64,000 nt of DNA from assembly GCA_977017645.1 (NCBI GenBank), contig OZ360247.1:49538001-49602000 (forward strand), given 5' to 3'. Below are positions 1-60,404 of the stretch, piece after piece. The notes beneath the pieces are model-generated. The model worked only from the letters and a program-made list of their open reading frames with translations. It had not been told where the DNA came from and made no database searches. The DNA comes from Torpedo marmorata (lineage: Eukaryota). Within the stretch, counting starts at the first letter, position 1. Every line of letters starts with the position of its first letter. A program made the position numbers and the translations under genes.

Positions 1-584
1 CATCCACGTGGATGCAATCACAAAGAAGGCTCGTCAGCGGCTATACTTTGTGAGGTCTTTGCGGAGATTCGGTATGTCACCGAAGACTCTCATAAACTTC
101 TACAGGTGTACCATGGAGAGCATTCTGGCTGGTTGCATCACTGCCTGGTATGGAGGCGCCAACTCCCAGGACAAGAGTAAACTCCAGAAGGTAGTTAACT
201 CGGCCTGTGACATTACAGGCACCAAACTTCACTCCATCGAGGACATCTACATGAGGCGGTGTCTTAAAAAATGCAGCCTCTATCCTCAAGGACCACCACC
301 ACCCAGGCCATGCCCTCTTCATTCTGCTTCCATCGGGAAAAAGGTACAGGAGCCTAAAGACGAGCACTCAAAGGCACAAGGACAGCTTCTCCTCCGCTGC
401 CATCAGATTCCTAAATAATCAATGAACCAAAGAGACTGCCTTACTTTTCGTGCACTATTGTTTATAATTTTTTTCTAGTAATGTCGTTAGTTGGTTAATA
501 TGAATGTTAATTGCACTATGATGCTGCCGCAAAACACCGAATTTCATGACTTGTTCATGACAATAAATTCTGATTCTGATTCTG
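1..584 (+). mobile_element. Rex1/Babar-clade LINE, 3' fragment (cut by window edge)
   Basis: ORF 8-418 [19 protein letters not shown]...FYRCTMESIL (Rex1-type C-terminus, frameshifted); 3' end CATGACAATAAA(TTCTGA)n. Confidence 0.85.
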
Positions 585-23510: not shown

Positions 23511-23954
23511 ACATTTTCTTTTTTTGTTTCTCACATCATTAATCCTTTGGACTACTCCAAGTCTGAATTCAAATTAATATCAAATTAGAAGCAGTTTTAA
23601 CATGGAAGGATTGTGTTGCCTTTTTTCACACAAGGCTTATAAAACCAGTGCAGAGAGAAGATTCTTCTTCCATCAGTCTTCACTAGATTTGAATGTTGAC
23701 CCTGGAGATACAAAGAGAGAGTGCTAAACTGTGGTGTTGATCAGTTGCCCCGATGAATCATTTCTAATTTCACTATAGGCAAAAAGCCAGGGATCTAAAT
23801 TTGGAGACCTGAAATCTGGTTTACAGAATTATGGAAATCATAGAATCATTGAGTATTTATGACACTGGAGGCTGTTTGCTCCATGGTAACTGTGTTGGTC
23901 AGTTGTTGATGACAGGTTATGGGGAGGGAGCAGGATAATGGTCTTGAGCTAGTG

Positions 23955-24328
23955 CAGTGGTTTTCAAACTTTTTCTTTCCACTCACATACCACTTTAAGT
24001 AATCCCTATGCTATAGGTGCTCTGTGATTAGTAAGGGATTACTTAAGGTGGTATGTGAGTGGGAAAAAAGGTTGAGAACCACTGCTCTAGACCCAATTGT
24101 TACTGAAATATTTTGCTTGAGAAAAATTGTCATTGGCCCATTTCCTTTGGAGTTATGAAACCGTGCACATAACGAGTCAATTAGGGACGATTAAAAAAGT
24201 GGTTTTCAAACTTTTTCTTTCCACTCACATACCACCTTAAGTAATCCCTTACTAATCACAGAGCACCTATGGCATAGGGATTAATTAAGGTGGAATGTGA
24301 GTGGAAAGTAAAAGTTTGAAATCCACTG
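23955..24328. mobile_element. Compound hAT (Charlie-type) MITE, copy A
   Basis: CAGTGGTTTTCAAAC termini; 8-bp TSD AGCTAGTG/AGCTAGGG; two palindromic units around a spacer. Confidence 0.88.
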
Positions 24329-24414
24329 AGCTAGGGGATCAGCCATGGCTGCATTAAATGGCAGAAGAGGTATGAAGGGCTGTGAATGGCCTAACTTACC
24401 CCTCATTTTACTGT

Positions 24415-24908
24415 AAGGAAAAACACAATGCTGGTACTCAGCAGGTCACACCGCATACTTTATATCGCAATGATAACGATACATAACCAACATTTCTGGC
24501 TTGAGCCTTTCATCAAGGTATGGAAAATGTAGGCAGGCGCCCGAACAAAATGGTGGGGGAAGGAGCAGGGGGAGGAGCACAGTCCCACAGGCGGGATGTA
24601 ATAGGTGGATAAGGGAGGGAGGATACAATAGCAAACAAGTGGAGGGGGGATATCCTGCTGTTGTGCCCTCCCTCCCTTATCCACCTCTTACCTCCCGCCT
24701 GTGGGACTGTGCTCCTCCCCCTGCCACTCCACTCCCCCCCCGCAACATTTTATTCAGGCACCTGCCTACATTTTGCTCATACCCTGATGAAGGGCTCAAG
24801 CCAGAAATGTTGGTTATGTACCTTTATCTTTGCTATATAAAGTACACTGTTTCTCCAGCATTGTGTTTTTACTTCAATCACGGTGTCTGCAGACTTTCGT
24901 GTTTTACT
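24415..24908. mobile_element. Penelope-like fold-back terminus with hammerhead motifs
   Basis: ~215-bp inverted arms; TSD CCTCATTTTACTGT (24401-24414) / CCTCGTTTTACTAT (24909-24922). Confidence 0.8.
24778..24817 (+). ncRNA. Minimal type I hammerhead ribozyme motif
   Basis: ACC-CTGATGA(24784-24790)-AG-GGC TCAA GCC-A-GAAA-TGTT-GGT: core, stem II, loopless stem III, stem I ACC/GGT. Confidence 0.65.
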
Positions 24909-26396: not shown

Positions 26397-26781
26397 TAAA
26401 ATTTAGACGTAAAGCACGGTAACAGCCCCTTCCGGCCCACGAGCCCGTGCCGTCCAATTACACCCAATTAACCTACAAACTCCGTACGTTTTTGAAGGAT
26501 GGGAGCAAACCGGAGCACCCGGGGAAAACCCACGCAGAGCGAAGCATGAAAGTCTGCAGACGCTGTGATTGTACTAAAATCACAGGAATGCTGGCGGAAC
26601 TCAGCTGGTCTCGCAGCGTCCATAGGAGGTAAAGATATATGACCGATGTTTCGGGCCTGAGCCCTTCGTCAAGCAGACACAGGAAGAACGTGTAAACATC
26701 TTACAGACAGTGCCAGATTCAAACCCAAGTTGCTGGCGCTGTAATACCATTGTGCTAACTGTTACGCTAACTGTGCCACCC
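26397..26781 (-). mobile_element. HE1/V-type SINE interrupted by a Penelope terminus
   Basis: SINE halves rejoin across a GCAGA duplication (26534-26538, 26673-26677). Confidence 0.8.
26539..26672 (-). mobile_element. Penelope-like terminus beginning at the hammerhead core
   Basis: Minus strand starts TTGACGAAGGGCTCAGGCCCGAAACATCGG. Confidence 0.75.
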
Positions 26782-27089: not shown

Positions 27090-27600
27090 TTGGGTGGTGA
27101 GGGTATAAGTGTAAACAGGCTTTTCCCACTGAGGTTGGGTGAGGCAAGAACTAGAAGACGTTGGTTCAGGGTGAAAGGCGAAATGGTTAAGGAGCGCATG
27201 TGGGGGAACTTCTTCATTCAGAGGCTGGTGAGAGTGTGGAATGCGCTGCCATCTGAAGTGATGGATGCGGGCTCGATTTTGACATTTAAGAGAAATTTGG
27301 ATGGGTATATGGATGGGAGGGGTATGGAGGGCCATGGTACGGATGGGAGGGGTATGGAGGGCCATGGTATGGATGGGAGGGGTATGGAGGGCCATGGTAC
27401 GGATGGGAGGGGTATGGAGGGCCATGGTATGGATGGGAGGGGTATGGAGGGCCATGGTACGGATGGGAGGGGTATGGAGGGCCATGGTACGGATGGGAGG
27501 GGTATGGAGGGCCATGGTACAGATGCAGGTCGATGGGACAAGGCAGAATAATAGTTTGGCAGGGATAGGCCGAAGGGCCGTTTCTGTGATGTAGTGTTCT
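27090..27600 (+). mobile_element. CR1 3' end
   Basis: NFFIQRLVRVWNALP..FKRNLD; GGCCGAAGGGCCGTTTCTGTG tail. Confidence 0.8.
27311..27520. repeat. 30-bp G-rich minisatellite, 7 units
   Basis: GGATGGGAGGGGTATGGAGGGCCATGGTAY x7. Confidence 0.97.
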
Positions 27601-29924: not shown

Positions 29925-30357
29925 GCACAAAAGTGCTAGAGAAACTCAGCAGGTCATGCAACATCCATAGGAATTAATAGACAAAAATGTAAAAAACAAA
30001 AATAAAGTGAAAAAAGAATGTTCCCATTGAAGGGCTCAGGTCGAAATGTTGCCTGCTTTTTATTTCCTATCGATGCTGCGTGACCTGCTGAGTTTCTCCA
30101 GCACTTTTGCGTACTGCACTCGACCCCAGCACCTGCAGACTTCCTAGGTTAACTACATTTCGCTGCTCCACTGCGAAGTCTCTTCGAGGGATGCCCACCC
30201 TGAAGAAGTTCTCTCTTCACATTCTCAACAAAGGGCTCAGGGCCCAAAACCTTGACTGCCATTTACCTCCTATTGCTGCTATGTGACCTGCTGAGTTTCT
30301 CCAGCACTTTTGTGTATTACACTAGACCCCAGCATCTGCAGATTTTTATGGTTAACT
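29925..30357. mobile_element. Penelope-like termini: one inverted and two tandem copies
   Basis: GACCTGCTGAGTTTCTCCAGCAC once on minus and twice on plus; degenerate GAAGGGCTCAGG..GAAA. Confidence 0.7.
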
Positions 30358-31004
30358 TCATCACAGGAATCAACTGAGTGAACCTTCTCTGCACTATTTC
30401 CACAGGGCTAAACTGTACATGGAACTTTAGGTGCAATCTAATCAGTTCCCTGTAAAGTTGTCTCAAAACTTCCCCACTGTTATACTCCATACGCCTTGCA
30501 ATGAAGGCCACCAATCCATTAGCCTTCCCAGTTAGTTGGTGAACTTATGTCAATCCTTTGTGTTTCATGTACAGAACGCGCAGATTCTTTTAAGCTGCAA
30601 CATCTTGTTGTCATTTTGCAGAAGAGCTTTGATGGTGGGTAAAGTAGGGAGGCTGTACAGTTTATCGTAGATCAATCCTAAAATTTCCAAACAGGACTCT
30701 GATAATTGCACTGGCATATAGATCCTGCAAACCCGAAGGACTTTGTTCCATCTTTTGATTGATTCAGGTGGTTTCGTGTTCAGTGAAAGCTAAAGACAGT
30801 AACTTTTTTTGGACCTGTTGCAAGAAACATTTAGTAATATTTTATGACAAGAAGAGCCAAAACAAGAGAAGCATTTATGTCTGATGCCATATCCTCAACT
30901 TGTGCTATACCCTACCACCACACCACCACACCCCCCCCACCCCCGAAGTCAACATTACTGGATGGGGTGTAGATTTTGCCATGGCTACCGTTCATCATTG
31001 ATCA

Positions 31005-39544: not shown

Positions 39545-39690
39545 AACAACAAACAATCTGCAGGAGGAACTCAACGGGTCGAGCAGCACGATGTGAGAAA
39601 CAAAGAATGGCCAATGTTTTGGCTCAGAACTCTCCCTCAGGACAGTCTTGATTCAGTCCACTTTGATGAAGGGCTCTGACCTGAATGTTA
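39545..39690. mobile_element. Old Penelope-like inverted termini
   Basis: GGAGGAACTCAACGGGTCGAGCAGCA (minus) then TTGATGAAGGGCTCTGACCTGAATGTT (plus). Confidence 0.55.
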
Positions 39691-40891
39691 CAAAGTACTA
39701 AATAGGCAATACCAGCGATGAACTAATATTTTGCGTACATATTTGGGTGGGGGCTCTTTGGTGGAAAACCAATTGCATCGAGCATTTAAGAATAGAACGC
39801 AGGTGAACACAATTGTGAACCTACAAGGACTGGCTTGAGTTCTCTCATGGCAGGAATATGTTTTTGAGAATCATTGCTGTTGTTCTATATCTTGCCCTCT
39901 GATCCATCCCTCCTCCAGCAGAGCTCCAAGCTGGGATTACTGCCAACAACAGAAAAGCATTAATTACTATTGCACATTGGTTAGATCAACCGTTTTCTAT
40001 GGCAACCACTGCATGAGGTTTATAACGTGATATTATTTTGTGTGGAATTATGAGACTGTAATCAACGTTGACTGCAGCTGGATCCAGATTATCCAAATTG
40101 ATTTGCCCAAGATGCTTCTAATTCACAGGAATGTTTAACAACAGTTTACATTCACGCTGAAGAATGTGTCATCACACCAGGCTGGAAAGGACAGTGTCCA
40201 AATCGACAGCTCCTCCCAGTCCACAGGGAGTTAGCTCATTTGGGGATTAACATAAACATTAACGAGTCTTATTAACAACTGAACATCAATAATAATGTCC
40301 TGTTACTGTTTACACAGACTACACTTGCAGGTGAGATACCAGTAATCATGATGTGAAACAATTCAAGGAAAATTTTGAGGAAATTGATGATTCTGTCATT
40401 CAGCCTTCCAGTGGGAAATGACCTTTACAAGAACACACCTCAGGAAATCATAGGCACTTAGCCAATGATCTTACATCGATTAATTTCTTGGCAAATTTGA
40501 AGCTGCCAGCTTTGCTAACAATTATCTTATTAGATATGTTTCCCACATTTGGCTCTCCACTTGGGCAGCTTGATTATGACGTAACTTCAGCAAAAAAAAA
40601 AACACTTTTTAATCCCTCTTATCAGGAATTGAAGCTTTTGGAGTATAATTTAGATGTCGTAGTTTTACATGTGAGGGAGATCATGGTGGCTAATCATTGC
40701 GAGCTGCCGCAGTTGTACATGCATCACTATACTGATGTAGGCAACTGCAGATATACCTCAGGCATAAATCAGAAATAGATTCCAGTTCTCTTATCTATCC
40801 AGATGCATGGCTGTATATTTATTTTTAAGTGTACCAGCATTAAATTACGAGCAATGGTGTAGCTGCCTTTCACTTGCTCTGCTTACAGTTG

Positions 40892-50394: not shown

Positions 50395-50757
50395 TAATCC
50401 CAATCAGATGACATTTACATCGACCTCTCCGGTTTCCATTAGACCCCTCCCCTGTCTGTCTGTCTCTCTCTTTTCCTATCCCTCCTTTTCTCCAGCTCCC
50501 CACCCCTTCCCTCTGCATTCAGAGAGCTATCCCCTCCCCTATCACTTCTCAAGTTTTTTTCTCTTCTTCCCTCCCACCCGTATACACCTATGATGTCTTG
50601 CCTGTGGTCCTCCCCCCACAATTTTATTCAGGCGCCTGCCTGCCTTTTGCTCATACCTTGACGAAGGGCTCAGGCCCGAAACATTGGTTACAGATCTTTG
50701 CGACATGAAGAACGCTGCGTGACCTGCTGAGTTTCTCCAGCACTTTTGTGTATTGAC
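50395..50757 (+). mobile_element. Penelope-like 3' end with hammerhead motif
   Basis: ORF end (DDIYIDLSGFH*), pyrimidine tract, ACC-TTGACGA-A-GGGCTCAGGCCC-GAAACATT-GGT at 50655-50688. Confidence 0.78.
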
Positions 50758-51063
50758 CTACCCCAACTACGTGCTCATCCAAATCATTAATATATTTGAC
50801 AAACAACAGAGGACCCAGCACTGATCCCTGTGTCACACCACTGGTCACAGGCCTCCACTCTGGGAAAACAGCCCTCCACTGCCGACCTCTGAAAACTTAC
50901 ACCAAGCTAATTTTAATTCCAATTGATCAGCTCACCCTGGATCCCATATGTTCCAATCTTCTGGACTAATCTACTACGCAGGACCTTGTCAAACGTCTTG
51001 CTAAAGTCCATGTCCATGTCCTGTCCTCTTGATCACCTCTTAAAAAAATTAATCATTCATGAG

Positions 51064-51285
51064 TGAAACACGAAAGTCTGCAGACGCTGTGATTGTAGTA
51101 AAATCACAGAAATGCTGGAGGAACTCAGCCGGTCTCGCAGCGTCCATAGGAGGTAAAGATAACCGATGTTTTGATCCTGAGCCCTTCTTACCTTGAAGAA
51201 GGGCTCAGGCCGAAATGTCGGTTATATATCTTTACCTCCTATAGACGCTCCAAGACCTGCTGAGTTCCTCCAGCATTACTGTGCC
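51064..51285. mobile_element. Penelope-like fold-back mini-element
   Basis: Inverted arms meet at ~51190; TSD AATCATTCATGAG (51051-51063) / AATCATTTGTGAG (51286-51298). Confidence 0.8.
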
Positions 51286-52605: not shown

Positions 52606-52983
52606 GAGATCCATGCAACCTCTGAAGAACAAATAAATTGCTGGATGATATAGGGCCAAGGTCCATCAATTCACCTTCTAGTACCCTGATAACCACATGG
52701 TAATAAAAACAATTACTGACACTGAAAATCTGAAATAAATACAGAAAATATTGAAAATACTCACCAGGTTAGATCGCATCAAAGGGAGGAGAAACAGAGT
52801 TAATTTTTCTGTATGTTCATGATAGTTATTAACATGAAAAATAATCACAAATCAACACCCTTGAATTAGTTTGCATGATGTTAAGTACCAGTTATTATTA
52901 TTGCATGGGAGGTAATATTGGCTTTAACAAGGAGCAGAAGCATCCCAGCTACGACAGCAACAATAACCACCTATAATATAGTA

Positions 52984-53186
52984 GTAAACACAAAAGTCTG
53001 CAGACACCGTGATTGAAGCAAAAACACATTGCTGGAGAAACTCAGCAGGTCAAACAGTGTACTCTACGTAGCAAAGACAAAGATACATAACCAACGTTTT
53101 GGGCTTGAGCCCTTCATCAAGGTATCATACCTTGCCAGATAAAGTACACTGTGTGACCTGCTGAGTTTCTCTAGCATTGTGTTTTT
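52984..53186. mobile_element. Penelope-like fold-back mini-element
   Basis: Arms meet at CAAGGTAT-C-ATACCTTG (~53125); TSD ACCTATAATATAGTA (52969-52983) / ACCGATAATACAGTA (53187-53201). Confidence 0.8.
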
Positions 53187-54049
53187 ACCGATAATACAGT
53201 AAAGCCTCATGTGGTGTTTGAAGTTTGTTAAAGTTGTTAGAGTTATCACTTGACCTGAGGTGAGGAGTGTACAGCATTGGGGCATTGTCCCCACAATCTC
53301 ATATCAATAAATATGTTGAGGCTGTCCTTGCAGTATATGTGCTTAGTATATGTATCAAACCTACGTTCCAGAAACAACCGGAAGATTTGAGGGTTTGAAG
53401 CAAACTCAAATCTTATTTCATTTTATGACCATTTAAATGTGCTGAAGATATGGCTTCAGCTATAAATTTTGTTTTTTATTCAAAATATTTTTACATTTAA
53501 TGAGAATGTTGTTCCTCCTAAAAATTGGGCTATATTCATCATAGTTATTCCAAATGACCTCATCAAATCTGGACTGCAGATTTGTACTGGCTGTTATTAA
53601 TCTACCACAGATATTCACAGCAAGTAACTTTATGGTTTAAGATATTTGAGCACACCATTACGTAAGGTCATGTACTCTGTCTGTGCTCACCTCTTGTACC
53701 TTCAACACCAATGCACTACGTCTGCTGATCTCCATTTGTTGGCTCCACCAATTATCACATTCTCATCTTTATATAATTTCAGGCCTCCACCCCTCTTGAT
53801 CTCAAGAACCTCCTCCAGCTCCCTGCTCATTCAACACCAGTCTCTTATACATCTTAGATTTTCTTCACGTCATTATTAGTGACCTTGCCTTCCTCGATTC
53901 GGCCCATCGTTATGGAATCTTTTCCCTAATCTCTCTGTATTTCTCTTATCTTTAAGGTGCACCTTTAAAGTAAGTTTTTTGGCCAGGATTTATTTATTTA
54001 TCTATCTATCTATCCTTCCATCTATATGTCTATTTATTTATTTATTTTA

Positions 54050-56170: not shown

Positions 56171-56945
56171 TGCTTGCTGTAAGGTCTCATAAACTGCATT
56201 GTGATATTGATTGTGTTCATCTAATTTAATGAAGGGTGAAACACGAAAGTCTGCAGACACTGTAATTGTAGTAAAAAGACACAGAAATGCTGGAGGAACT
56301 CAGCCGGTCTCGCTGTGTCCGTAGGAGGTAAAGATATGTTACCGACATTTCGGGCCTGAGCCCTTCTTCAAGGTAGAAGCAGAAAACAGAAAGGCGACTG
56401 GATAAAGACTGGAGAAAGAAAGGGGGAAGAATGGGAAGGGGAGGAGTCCAGACCAACAGCCAAAAGGTGTTAATTGGACATGATAAGAGGAAATGTGAGA
56501 ATTGATTTTGGCTCTGTAAAAGGAGACAGAGGGAAAAGGGAAAAGGGAAGAAAGAGAGAGACAGAGCTGGGGAAAGGCAACAGGGGGAAGTAGAAGGGGG
56601 TGGGGGTTAACGGAAACCGGGGAAGTCGATGTTAATGCCATCCAGTTGGAGAGTGCACAGATGAGGTGTTGTTCCTCCAACAATTTAATGATGTTGCTTG
56701 AGGAAAAAACATGGGCCAAGGAACTGGGGAGATGTCTCCCTCTCTTCTTCCTTGAGGTGGCAGATACAGTATTCCGAAGGCTTTTCCCAGAAAGTGGCAT
56801 ATCTGACAGTGCACTCCCTCGACGCTGATCCGGATTGAGTTAGACATAGAATGGCAGCAGCCCTTGTCATCACATTGGACACCCCAACTCAACTTGAGCT
56901 GTCCAATGTCCAAGACCCAAAACCTTCTGATAGAAACGAGTGGTG
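56036..56945 (-). mobile_element. Ancient Deu-domain SINE (56036-56232 plus 56682-56945), split by Penelope
   Basis: Recalled SacSINE1-like blocks: CCAAAGTGCTTTACA, GGCAGCCAAGTTG, GATGTTGCTTGAGG..GGCCAAGGAACTGGGGAGA, GACAGTGCACTCCCTC, AACCTTCTGA. Confidence 0.55.
56233..56681 (-). mobile_element. Penelope-like element 3' end (GIY-YIG C-terminus plus terminus)
   Basis: Minus strand LEEQHLI..(frameshift)..QLDGINIDFPGFR*; hammerhead motif 56341-56375; TSD AATTTAATGA (56223-56232, 56682-56691). Confidence 0.82.
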
Positions 56946-59894: not shown

Positions 59895-60404
59895 CGTTCC
59901 TAATTCCAGTGAGTACAGGCCCAGAGCCATGAAACGCTCCTTATACATGAATCCACTGTGAGACCGGCTGAGTTCCTCCAGCATTTCTGTGTTTTTACTA
60001 CAATTACAGCATCTGCAGACTTTCGTGTTTCACTCCATTAATCCTCTCATCCCTGGGATCATTCTCTCCCTGAATGCCTCCCACAATTTCATCCGTCTCC
60101 CTCCCTTTCAGCTCTGTGCTACATCTTTACCGTCCCATGAATTCTCACTTTCTTTTACTCCAGATTACCCTGCTCTCACTTCACTGCCCCCATCCCCACC
60201 CCCATGCTCCAGCCGCCACTACTCTCCCCTGATTTAGGCCGTCCACCTTCACCAGGGCCACTGCCTGGTTCCTGATCTCTGACTTTGATCCCAGCAGCTA
60301 CATCACTCGATTTAGCCCTGAACCCCACAAAACCTTGGGAGAATCTTTAGCTGCCCATCCAATGACCTGTGGGCAGACTGGTGGGTCCTGGTGCCTACAG
60401 AGGC

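What the first reader, a model, noticed from the sequence alone, without database searches (positions are those of the whole stretch)
24778..24817. Dispersed family of minimal hammerhead ribozyme motifs in Penelope-like termini
Seen: consensus ACC-YTGANGA-A-GGGC TCAR GCCC-GAAA-YRTY-GGT at 24781(+), 24485-24520(-), 26640-26672(-), 50655(+), 51190(+), 53088-53125(-) and 56341-56375(-), with decayed versions near 30027, 30228 and 39663. It has the hammerhead core, a 4-bp stem II with tetraloop, a loopless stem III (palindromic AACGTT in the inferred consensus) and stem I ACC/GGT. The copy at 56233-56681 links it to a GIY-YIG-type ORF end. Established: Penelope-like elements carry minimal type I hammerheads thought to cleave as dimers. 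Notable: most copies have U instead of C at core position 3 across subfamilies, which would turn the C3-G8 pair into a wobble.
Basis: partly seen in the sequence, partly recalled or inferred. Interest (0 to 1): 0.7.

Follow-up and report, generated by a model that had tools for sequence, protein, structure and literature searches.

The report
Wobble-core hammerhead in Penelope retrotransposon
The repeats are decayed ends of a very abundant jumping gene that carries a known kind of small self-cutting RNA motif with one core base changed; the change likely arose by a one-base insertion and was then kept through several waves of copying, so the motif is likely a weakened but still selected ribozyme, though cutting has not been shown.

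Summary
The motif is real: all 7 named copies are present (9 fuzzy hits against 0 in 20 shuffles). It is the minimal type I hammerhead in the terminal repeat of a Neptune-like Penelope retrotransposon. Intact 1,159-codon RT plus GIY-YIG frames carry it in both tandem repeats. U3·G8 is the master state: 109,934 exact cores against 2,286 with C3 and 2,492 with U3-A8. Older subfamilies have canonical C3 (29 of 30), and a transitional one suggests U3 arose by a one-base insertion. After that the core stayed invariant while stem I changed C-G, U·G, U-A. The copy at the given coordinates is itself C3 with a broken stem II, and none of the 7 is intact. Insert ends imply mostly uncleaved templates; 3 of 23 full-length copies start at the predicted cut, a weak signal. 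A U3·G8 Penelope hammerhead already stands in a 2014 supplement, and this scan noted the family before on other DNA of this genome. Known kind, useful test case.

The parts
24415..24904 (.). Fold-back insertion of two 5'-truncated terminal repeats (subfamily B), head to head, with a longer 3' tail on the right arm
24778..24818 (+). Hammerhead motif of the right arm: C3 at 24784, A at 11.1, palindrome decayed; predicted cut site between 24811 and 24812; likely dead
24482..24522 (-). Hammerhead motif of the left arm: U3, A10.1/A11.1 mismatch, palindrome decayed
26542..26673 (-). Terminal-repeat stub (subfamily C) with U3 motif, truncated within stem I, sitting inside another dispersed repeat
30021..30361 (+). 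Two decayed motifs with tails 201-203 nt apart, with a remnant of the ORF start (30171-30211) between them
39610..39695 (.). Old decayed pair on opposite strands; the minus-strand copy has C3
50611..50754 (+). Terminal-repeat fragment with U3 motif (position 3 at 50658); core and stems intact, palindrome decayed
51061..51283 (.). Small fold-back insertion; U3 motif at 51193(+) with a one-base deletion in stem II; the other arm is truncated inside the core
52980..53188 (.). Fold-back insertion; U3 motif at 53120(-) with G12A
56236..56679 (-). 3' end of an element: last ~27 ORF codons (56604-56679), 3' UTR, U3 motif (position 3 at 56371) and tail
59954..60045 (+). Tail-only fragment without the motif

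Best explanation
These are dead, truncated ends of a Neptune-like Penelope retrotransposon whose terminal repeat carries a minimal type I hammerhead motif with U3·G8 in place of C3-G8, and in the intact source elements this motif is likely a slow, still-selected ribozyme that would cut only a minority of transcripts. Shown: intact elements are 3,849-nt tandem units with the motif in both repeats, about 150 nt before the ATG; U3 is the inherited state of the four youngest subfamilies; insertions end 74-127 nt past the predicted cut. Inferred: stem III forms between two motifs through the ACGU palindrome, probably with help from the element's protein. U3 arose when a one-base insertion moved the old C3 into stem I. 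The wobble lowers the rate, so most templates stay uncut, which suits reverse transcription that starts downstream of the motif.
For: Element identity: 9 of 14 fetched long loci have a 1,159-codon open frame, and 7 of those 9 have the motif in both repeats at 99.5-99.8% identity. RVT_1 and GIY-YIG match below Pfam cut-offs; a CX4CXXC linker is present. Master state: 109,934 U3·G8 against 2,286 C3-G8 and 2,492 U3-A8 exact cores; a generic core gives 106,161 against 3,372; an unbiased 534 kb sample gives 37 of 42 in-register copies U3. No T>C difference reaches 5% at this position in contigs of 4 of 4 runs from other coded organisms, one of them with only 12 contigs laid. History: tail divergence is A 1%, B 5%, C 9%, D 12%. 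D is C3 in 29 of 30, C is U3 in 29 of 30, and the transitional family is 17 U3 (11 read ACC-T) and 13 C3 (7 read TAC-C), aligning as a one-base insertion. Selection after U3: 14 of 14 catalytically constrained positions are invariant over five U3 majority sequences against 75 of 170 UTR columns (p 2e-5; proximal 40 columns p 0.006). N7, H17 and a loop base, the free positions of a hammerhead, change repeatedly. Pair 2.1:1.1 runs C-G (B, C), U·G (A, 37 of 40), U-A (A', 13 of 13). 3 of 23 copies reaching the ORF start begin within 3 nt of the predicted cut (P 1e-4 to 1e-3). A Poseidon PLE hammerhead cuts only with its protein and is dispensable for insertion in vitro (PMC11167929).
Against: No cleavage data. 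In a type III hammerhead all single mutants of this core region had low activity (PMC9901934 section 7; the C3U value itself was not seen). The 5'-end signal is post hoc: 2 of the 3 cases prompted the test, only 1 of 12 informative copies fetched afterwards fits, all three junctions include C17 and two lie in microhomology, and a transcription start there would look the same. Short stubs do not pile up at the cut (2 stubs within 3 nt, 23 of 76 ends at -41 to -25), and 10 of 23 full-length copies read through the upstream motif. Stem II has no two-sided change in these subfamilies. The invariance test is partly circular for C and the transitional family, which were fetched by exact motif patterns, and the pyrimidine-rich UTR aligns poorly. 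A tail block is about as conserved, so conservation alone does not prove catalysis. G1.1A and C11.1U in A' are CpG-type changes and G1.1A also stabilises a rival rod fold. The tail tree is too weak to show one origin of U3 (6 changes).
Confidence: 0.6

Rival explanations
1. U3 killed catalysis, and the fold is kept as a structural or protein-binding element of the transposition RNA, for example a rod with tandem G·A pairs.
For: Core mutants at this pair have low activity. Hammerhead mutants do not affect insertion by a Poseidon PLE in vitro. Naiad PLEs thrive without canonical hammerheads (PMC8557442). Minimum-energy folds of A and B copies pair the core strand into a rod. Templates are mostly uncut.
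Against: The positions that vary are those free in a catalytic hammerhead (N7 takes A, U, C and G; H17 only C or U), while U4, G5, A6, G12 and the CpG palindrome never change in the majority sequences. A7 in C and A' breaks a pair of the rod.
Confidence: 0.27
2. The block is conserved as DNA, as part of the internal promoter, and the 5' ends near position 1.1 mark the transcription start rather than a cut.
For: PLE repeats hold the promoter (PMC6765202). The site reads like a pyrimidine-purine initiator, TCAGTT in A' (resemblance recalled, not tested). It lies about 150 nt before the ATG.
Against: It does not explain the two-sided stem I changes. No extra G, as a capped template might leave, stands at the three junctions. 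Many copies extend far upstream.
Confidence: 0.08
3. In subfamilies B and C the old C3 still pairs with G8 and the inserted U is bulged out, so the core is an insertion variant and not a wobble.
For: The insertion origin leaves CC-UUGA, so a C is available one base upstream. Natural core insertions are known (PMC3088659 section 8).
Against: That base covaries with 1.1 (C-G, U·G, U-A), so it is in stem I. In A and A' it is U, so no C is available.
Confidence: 0.05

Closest known systems
Minimal hammerheads (min-HHR) in pLTRs of metazoan Penelope-like elements (Cervera and De la Pena 2014, PMC4209133; parts 1-2 of 4 read, supplement file 2 searched)
   Same: Type I, no stem III loop, palindromic 15.2-16.2, extra base before stem II, G10.1-C11.1, in both terminal repeats, mostly solitary truncated copies. 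The supplement lists one PLE-associated Saccoglossus motif with a UUGAAGAA core, which is U3·G8.
   Different: The parts of the main text read name only U3-A8 as a core variant, and the descriptor requires cuganga, so it would miss this family. Here U3·G8 is 97% of all generic cores and over 100,000 copies, against about 9,000 for the largest set reported in the parts read. Its origin and later evolution can be traced through subfamilies.
Neptune clade of endonuclease-positive PLEs (PMC8557442, passages)
   Same: [quoted passage not shown]
   Different: The clade was not placed by a tree here, and Nematis shares the linker. The N-terminal part has 57-nt internal repeats and a Pro-rich tract.
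Poseidon element PAc of Anolis (PMC11167929, parts 1-2 of 4 read)
   Same: Hammerhead near the ORF start; two RT start sites downstream of it giving long and short ends; uncut RNA as the main template.
   Different: PAc has C3-G8 and its ORF overlaps the motif. Here the motif is non-coding and has U3·G8.
Animal non-LTR retrozymes (bioRxiv 10.64898/2026.07.22.740005, part 1 of 5 and passages)
   Same: Type I hammerheads related to PLE repeats.
   Different: The window copies are dispersed stubs of an autonomous element, not short tandem arrays.

Membership tests
Endonuclease-positive Penelope-like element | Single ORF with RT and C-terminal GIY-YIG | tested here: met
   1,159-codon frame in 9 of 14 loci; RVT_1 E 3e-6 and GIY-YIG E 6e-4, both under the Pfam cut-off
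Endonuclease-positive Penelope-like element | Partial-tandem pLTRs, inverted truncated copies, optional tail | tested here: met
   Tandem unit 3,849 nt in 7 of 9 intact loci; fold-backs in the window; 3' ends at +74..82 (20 of 46) and +110..127 (22 of 46)
Neptune clade | CX2-5CXXC linker between RT and endonuclease | tested here: met
   CVRRRCNTC in L174, CARRRCNTC in L176
Neptune clade | RT phylogeny groups with Neptune, not Nematis or Poseidon | not tested
   No reference sequences fetched; vertebrate PLEs are reported as Neptune or Poseidon
Minimal type I hammerhead | Core U4 G5 A6 N7 G8 A9 / G12 A13 A14, A15.1-U16.1, H17 | tested here: met
   Majority state at every position in 42 unbiased copies and in intact elements
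Minimal type I hammerhead | Watson-Crick pair between positions 3 and 8 | tested here: not met
   U3·G8 in 109,934 exact cores against 2,286 and 2,492 with a Watson-Crick pair; met only in older subfamilies. A printed PLE motif also lacks it
Minimal type I hammerhead | Stem I closing the junction, with covariation | tested here: met
   2 of 3 pairs with two-sided changes; C-G, U·G, U-A at 2.1:1.1 and U-A, C-G at 2.2:1.2
Minimal type I hammerhead | Stem II with covariation | tested here: inconclusive
   96% paired but 0 of 4 pairs two-sided in 14 copies; 3 of the first 100 listed C3 matches show A-U for G-C at 10.2:11.2
Minimal type I hammerhead | Palindromic 15-16 segment allowing dimer stem III | tested here: met
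   ACGT in all intact elements; decayed in 6 of 7 window copies
Minimal type I hammerhead | Site-specific self-cleavage after H17 | not testable with these tools
   Only contigs were available; the genomic 5'-end signal is weak

The most novel reading that the evidence does not exclude
A one-base insertion pulled the catalytic C3 into stem I and left a U3·G8 core; this throttled ribozyme was then kept under selection through four successive subfamilies and more than 100,000 insertions because slow cutting leaves the uncut template that reverse transcription needs, and the few full-length copies that begin at the cut site are a genomic footprint of cleavage in vivo. The dated series D, transitional, C, B, A, A' would be a natural experiment on what Penelope hammerheads are for.
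Probability: 0.3. Interest if true: 0.68.

Novelty: new member of a known kind. Interest (0 to 1): 0.42.

Why it matters
What hammerheads do in Penelope elements is open: they are conserved, cut poorly in vitro and are dispensable for insertion in the one purified system. Here an apparently active family with intact ORFs carries a core pair expected to impair cleavage, and its C3 forerunners survive in the same genome, so rates can be compared along one lineage. Standard descriptors that require CUGANGA miss 97% of the hammerhead-like motifs in this genome. The window copies themselves are ordinary dead stubs.

Tried and rejected
Rfam: no hammerhead hit at E<=1. My first reading that C3 copies are only back-mutations was wrong: many belong to older C3 subfamilies. 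A recalled motif of another hammerhead-like repeat is nearly absent (2 and 2 matches). Compensation by A8 is rejected (2,492 cores, about 2%). The ORF start holds a look-alike of the core's 5' half with C3; I checked by eye the 6 GAAA sites listed for the unit and saw no stem II partner, so a split second ribozyme was dropped. Energy folding cannot model the core or the 4-bp dimer stem and was not used as support. The tail tree (66 rows, 95 columns) was unresolved. No pile-up of stub 5' ends at the cut. The 3'-end count could not see copies ending at the cut, because the pattern needed 17 bases beyond it. Sequencing runs were contigs only, so no RNA ends or expression; the difference table was cut (75 rows hidden), so organisms G, H and J are inconclusive for position 3. 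Literature searches for U3·G8 or C3U in PLE hammerheads found no description in main texts; the precedent came from a supplement. Lunse et al. (about PLE hammerhead variants, seen only as a reference line) and the kinetic papers on positions 3 and 8 were not held and may cover this variant. File 1 of the PMC4209133 supplement could not be searched, the PMC9901934 supplements were listed but not read, and bioRxiv supplements were not seen.

Full report
Observation. All seven named copies are present. A pattern with up to 9 substitutions finds 9 places in the window and none in 20 shuffled windows. Six of the seven have U at core position 3. The copy at 24778-24817 has C3, a G10.1·A11.1 mismatch and a decayed palindrome. 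It is the right arm of a fold-back insertion (24415-24874) whose left arm is the 24516(-) copy. Every window copy has at least one defect, mostly CpG-type changes, so they are dead stubs. Rfam does not recognise the motif.

The element. Loci around exact matches run upstream into an RT plus GIY-YIG frame. A protein search of the 6.2-Gb genome scored 150 of 64,591 candidates. Of 14 long-frame loci fetched, 9 have the same 1,159-codon frame, and 7 of these have the motif in both repeats of a 3,849-nt tandem unit, 99.5-99.8% alike. The CX4CXXC linker points to Neptune (PMC8557442); no tree was built. The window stretch 56604-56679 matches the last 27 codons of this ORF at 75%. I did not determine the host; earlier scan notes call it a ray (unchecked).

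U3 is the master state. Exact 24-base cores number 109,934 with U3·G8, 2,286 with C3-G8 and 2,492 with U3-A8; reversed-pattern controls gave 0. A generic core with any stem II gives 106,161 U3 and 3,372 C3 (controls 48 and 19). In 534 kb not chosen for the motif (the window included), an anchor that leaves position 3 free gave 61 hits, 51 with the element's tail and 42 in register; 37 were U3 and 5 C3. Contigs of four runs from other coded organisms show no T>C difference of 5% or more at this base while the neighbouring base is polymorphic; one run had only 12 contigs laid. The table for four more runs was cut.

History. Sorted by tail, the unbiased in-register copies are A 11 of 11, B 10 of 10 and C 16 of 16 U3, and D 5 of 5 C3; 4 out-of-register and 5 unassigned copies were set aside. 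Tail divergence rises from 1% (A) to 5%, 9% and 12% (D). Patterns that leave position 3 free gave D 29 of 30 C3, C 29 of 30 U3, and a transitional family 17 U3 and 13 C3 (first 30 of 192, 1,954 and 628 matches). In the transitional family U3 copies mostly read ACC-T and C3 copies TAC-C, and the majorities align with a one-base gap. The simplest reading (inference) is an insertion that turned a poor stem I (A·G and U·U at the second and third pairs) into three good pairs by moving C3 to position 2.1. The tail tree does not prove one origin. The youngest family A' has 3,714 exact 37-mers.

Selection after U3. Over five U3 majorities, 14 of 14 constrained positions are invariant, against 75 of 170 UTR columns (p 2e-5) or 25 of the 40 nearest columns (p 0.006). 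A against C differs at 2 of 27 motif columns and 72 of 171 UTR columns. N7, H17 and one loop base vary, as in the hammerhead consensus. Pair 2.1:1.1 goes C-G, U·G, U-A, and 10.1:11.1 becomes G·U in A'. In 14 aligned natural copies, 2 of 3 stem I pairs and 0 of 4 stem II pairs change on both sides. Limits: C and the transitional set were fetched by motif patterns, the UTR is low in complexity, a tail block is similarly conserved, and both A' changes are CpG-type.

Is the template cut? 3' ends of 46 young copies fall at +74 to +82 (20) and +110 to +127 (22) past the predicted cut, with 4 elsewhere, so the 3' motif was uncut in those templates. This matches internal RT initiation in the Anolis element, whose hammerhead cuts only with its protein and is not needed for insertion in vitro (PMC11167929). 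Of 135 loci, 25 reach the ORF's 5' part; dropping the reference and one copy that runs past the query leaves 23, of which 10 read through the upstream motif and 3 begin within 3 nt of the cut (P 1e-4 uniform, 1e-3 conservative). Two of the three prompted the test, only 1 of 12 later copies fits, and all include C17, two within microhomology. Stubs show no such peak. This is suggestive only.

Mechanism. Shown: anatomy, copy numbers, subfamily states and insert ends. From the literature: minimal PLE hammerheads cut weakly as dimers (PMC4209133; PMC6765202), and single changes in this core region give low activity in a type III hammerhead (PMC9901934). Inferred: a slow, dimer- or protein-assisted ribozyme still under selection (0.6). 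Rivals: a catalytically dead structural element (0.27), a promoter element (0.08), a bulged-U core (0.05).

Novelty. The kind is known. Natural U3-A8 is described, and one U3·G8 PLE motif stands in the 2014 supplement, though the descriptor there requires cuganga. My searches found no main-text account of U3·G8, but the paper on numerous PLE hammerhead variants was not held. This scan has already noted the family on other pieces of this genome. Papers seen: PMC4209133 parts 1-2 of 4 and passages of supplement file 2; PMC11167929 parts 1-2 of 4; bioRxiv 2026.07.22.740005 part 1 of 5 and passages; PMC3088659 section 8 and passages; PMC9901934 section 7 and passages; passages of PMC6765202, PMC8557442, PMC7151607 and PMC6155905. 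Hammerhead numbering is from established knowledge.

Verdict. A real, correctly read feature; a new member of a known kind with a testable core variant. Interest 0.42.

Noticed in passing
L174:3657-3673; window 30171-30211: The first codons of the ORF contain a look-alike of the hammerhead core's 5' half with C3, conserved between old and young subfamilies; no GAAA partner or stem II was seen.
   Followed up: partly
loci; window 51186, 53125, 26673: 5' ends of short copies cluster 25-41 nt upstream of the predicted cut, at the 5' edge of stem I (23 of 76 ends), as if reverse transcription often stops just after crossing the motif.
   Followed up: partly
L174:3545-3567; window 53148-53176: A tail block able to form a 5-bp hairpin is about as conserved across subfamilies as the hammerhead and lies just upstream of the shorter 3' end; a candidate protein-binding or RT start signal.
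   Followed up: no
L174-L185 junctions: Young insertions show 11-15 nt AT-rich target-site duplications in 6 of 10 checked, four of them with 1-3 nt of microhomology at the 5' junction.
   Followed up: partly
L183:2635-2660: A full-length copy starts twice at the same place next to the predicted cut, with a 23-nt repeat, as a template jump from a fixed RNA end would give.
   Followed up: partly
L174:4179-4546; L183: The ORF's N-terminal part holds a 57-nt tandem repeat whose copy number differs between subfamilies.
   Followed up: no
L179:1511-3122: A 262-nt piece of the element's 3' part is repeated about six times in front of the upstream terminal repeat.
   Followed up: no
window 23944-24330: A short repeat with inverted ends is present in several adjacent copies just left of the fold-back; looks like a non-autonomous DNA transposon.
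   Followed up: no
window 26500-26538 and 26670-26781, with about ten similar copies elsewhere: Another abundant short dispersed repeat, into which the 26542-26673 stub inserted.
   Followed up: no
window 27329-27500: A 30-nt G-rich tandem repeat at the end of a LINE-like fragment.
   Followed up: no
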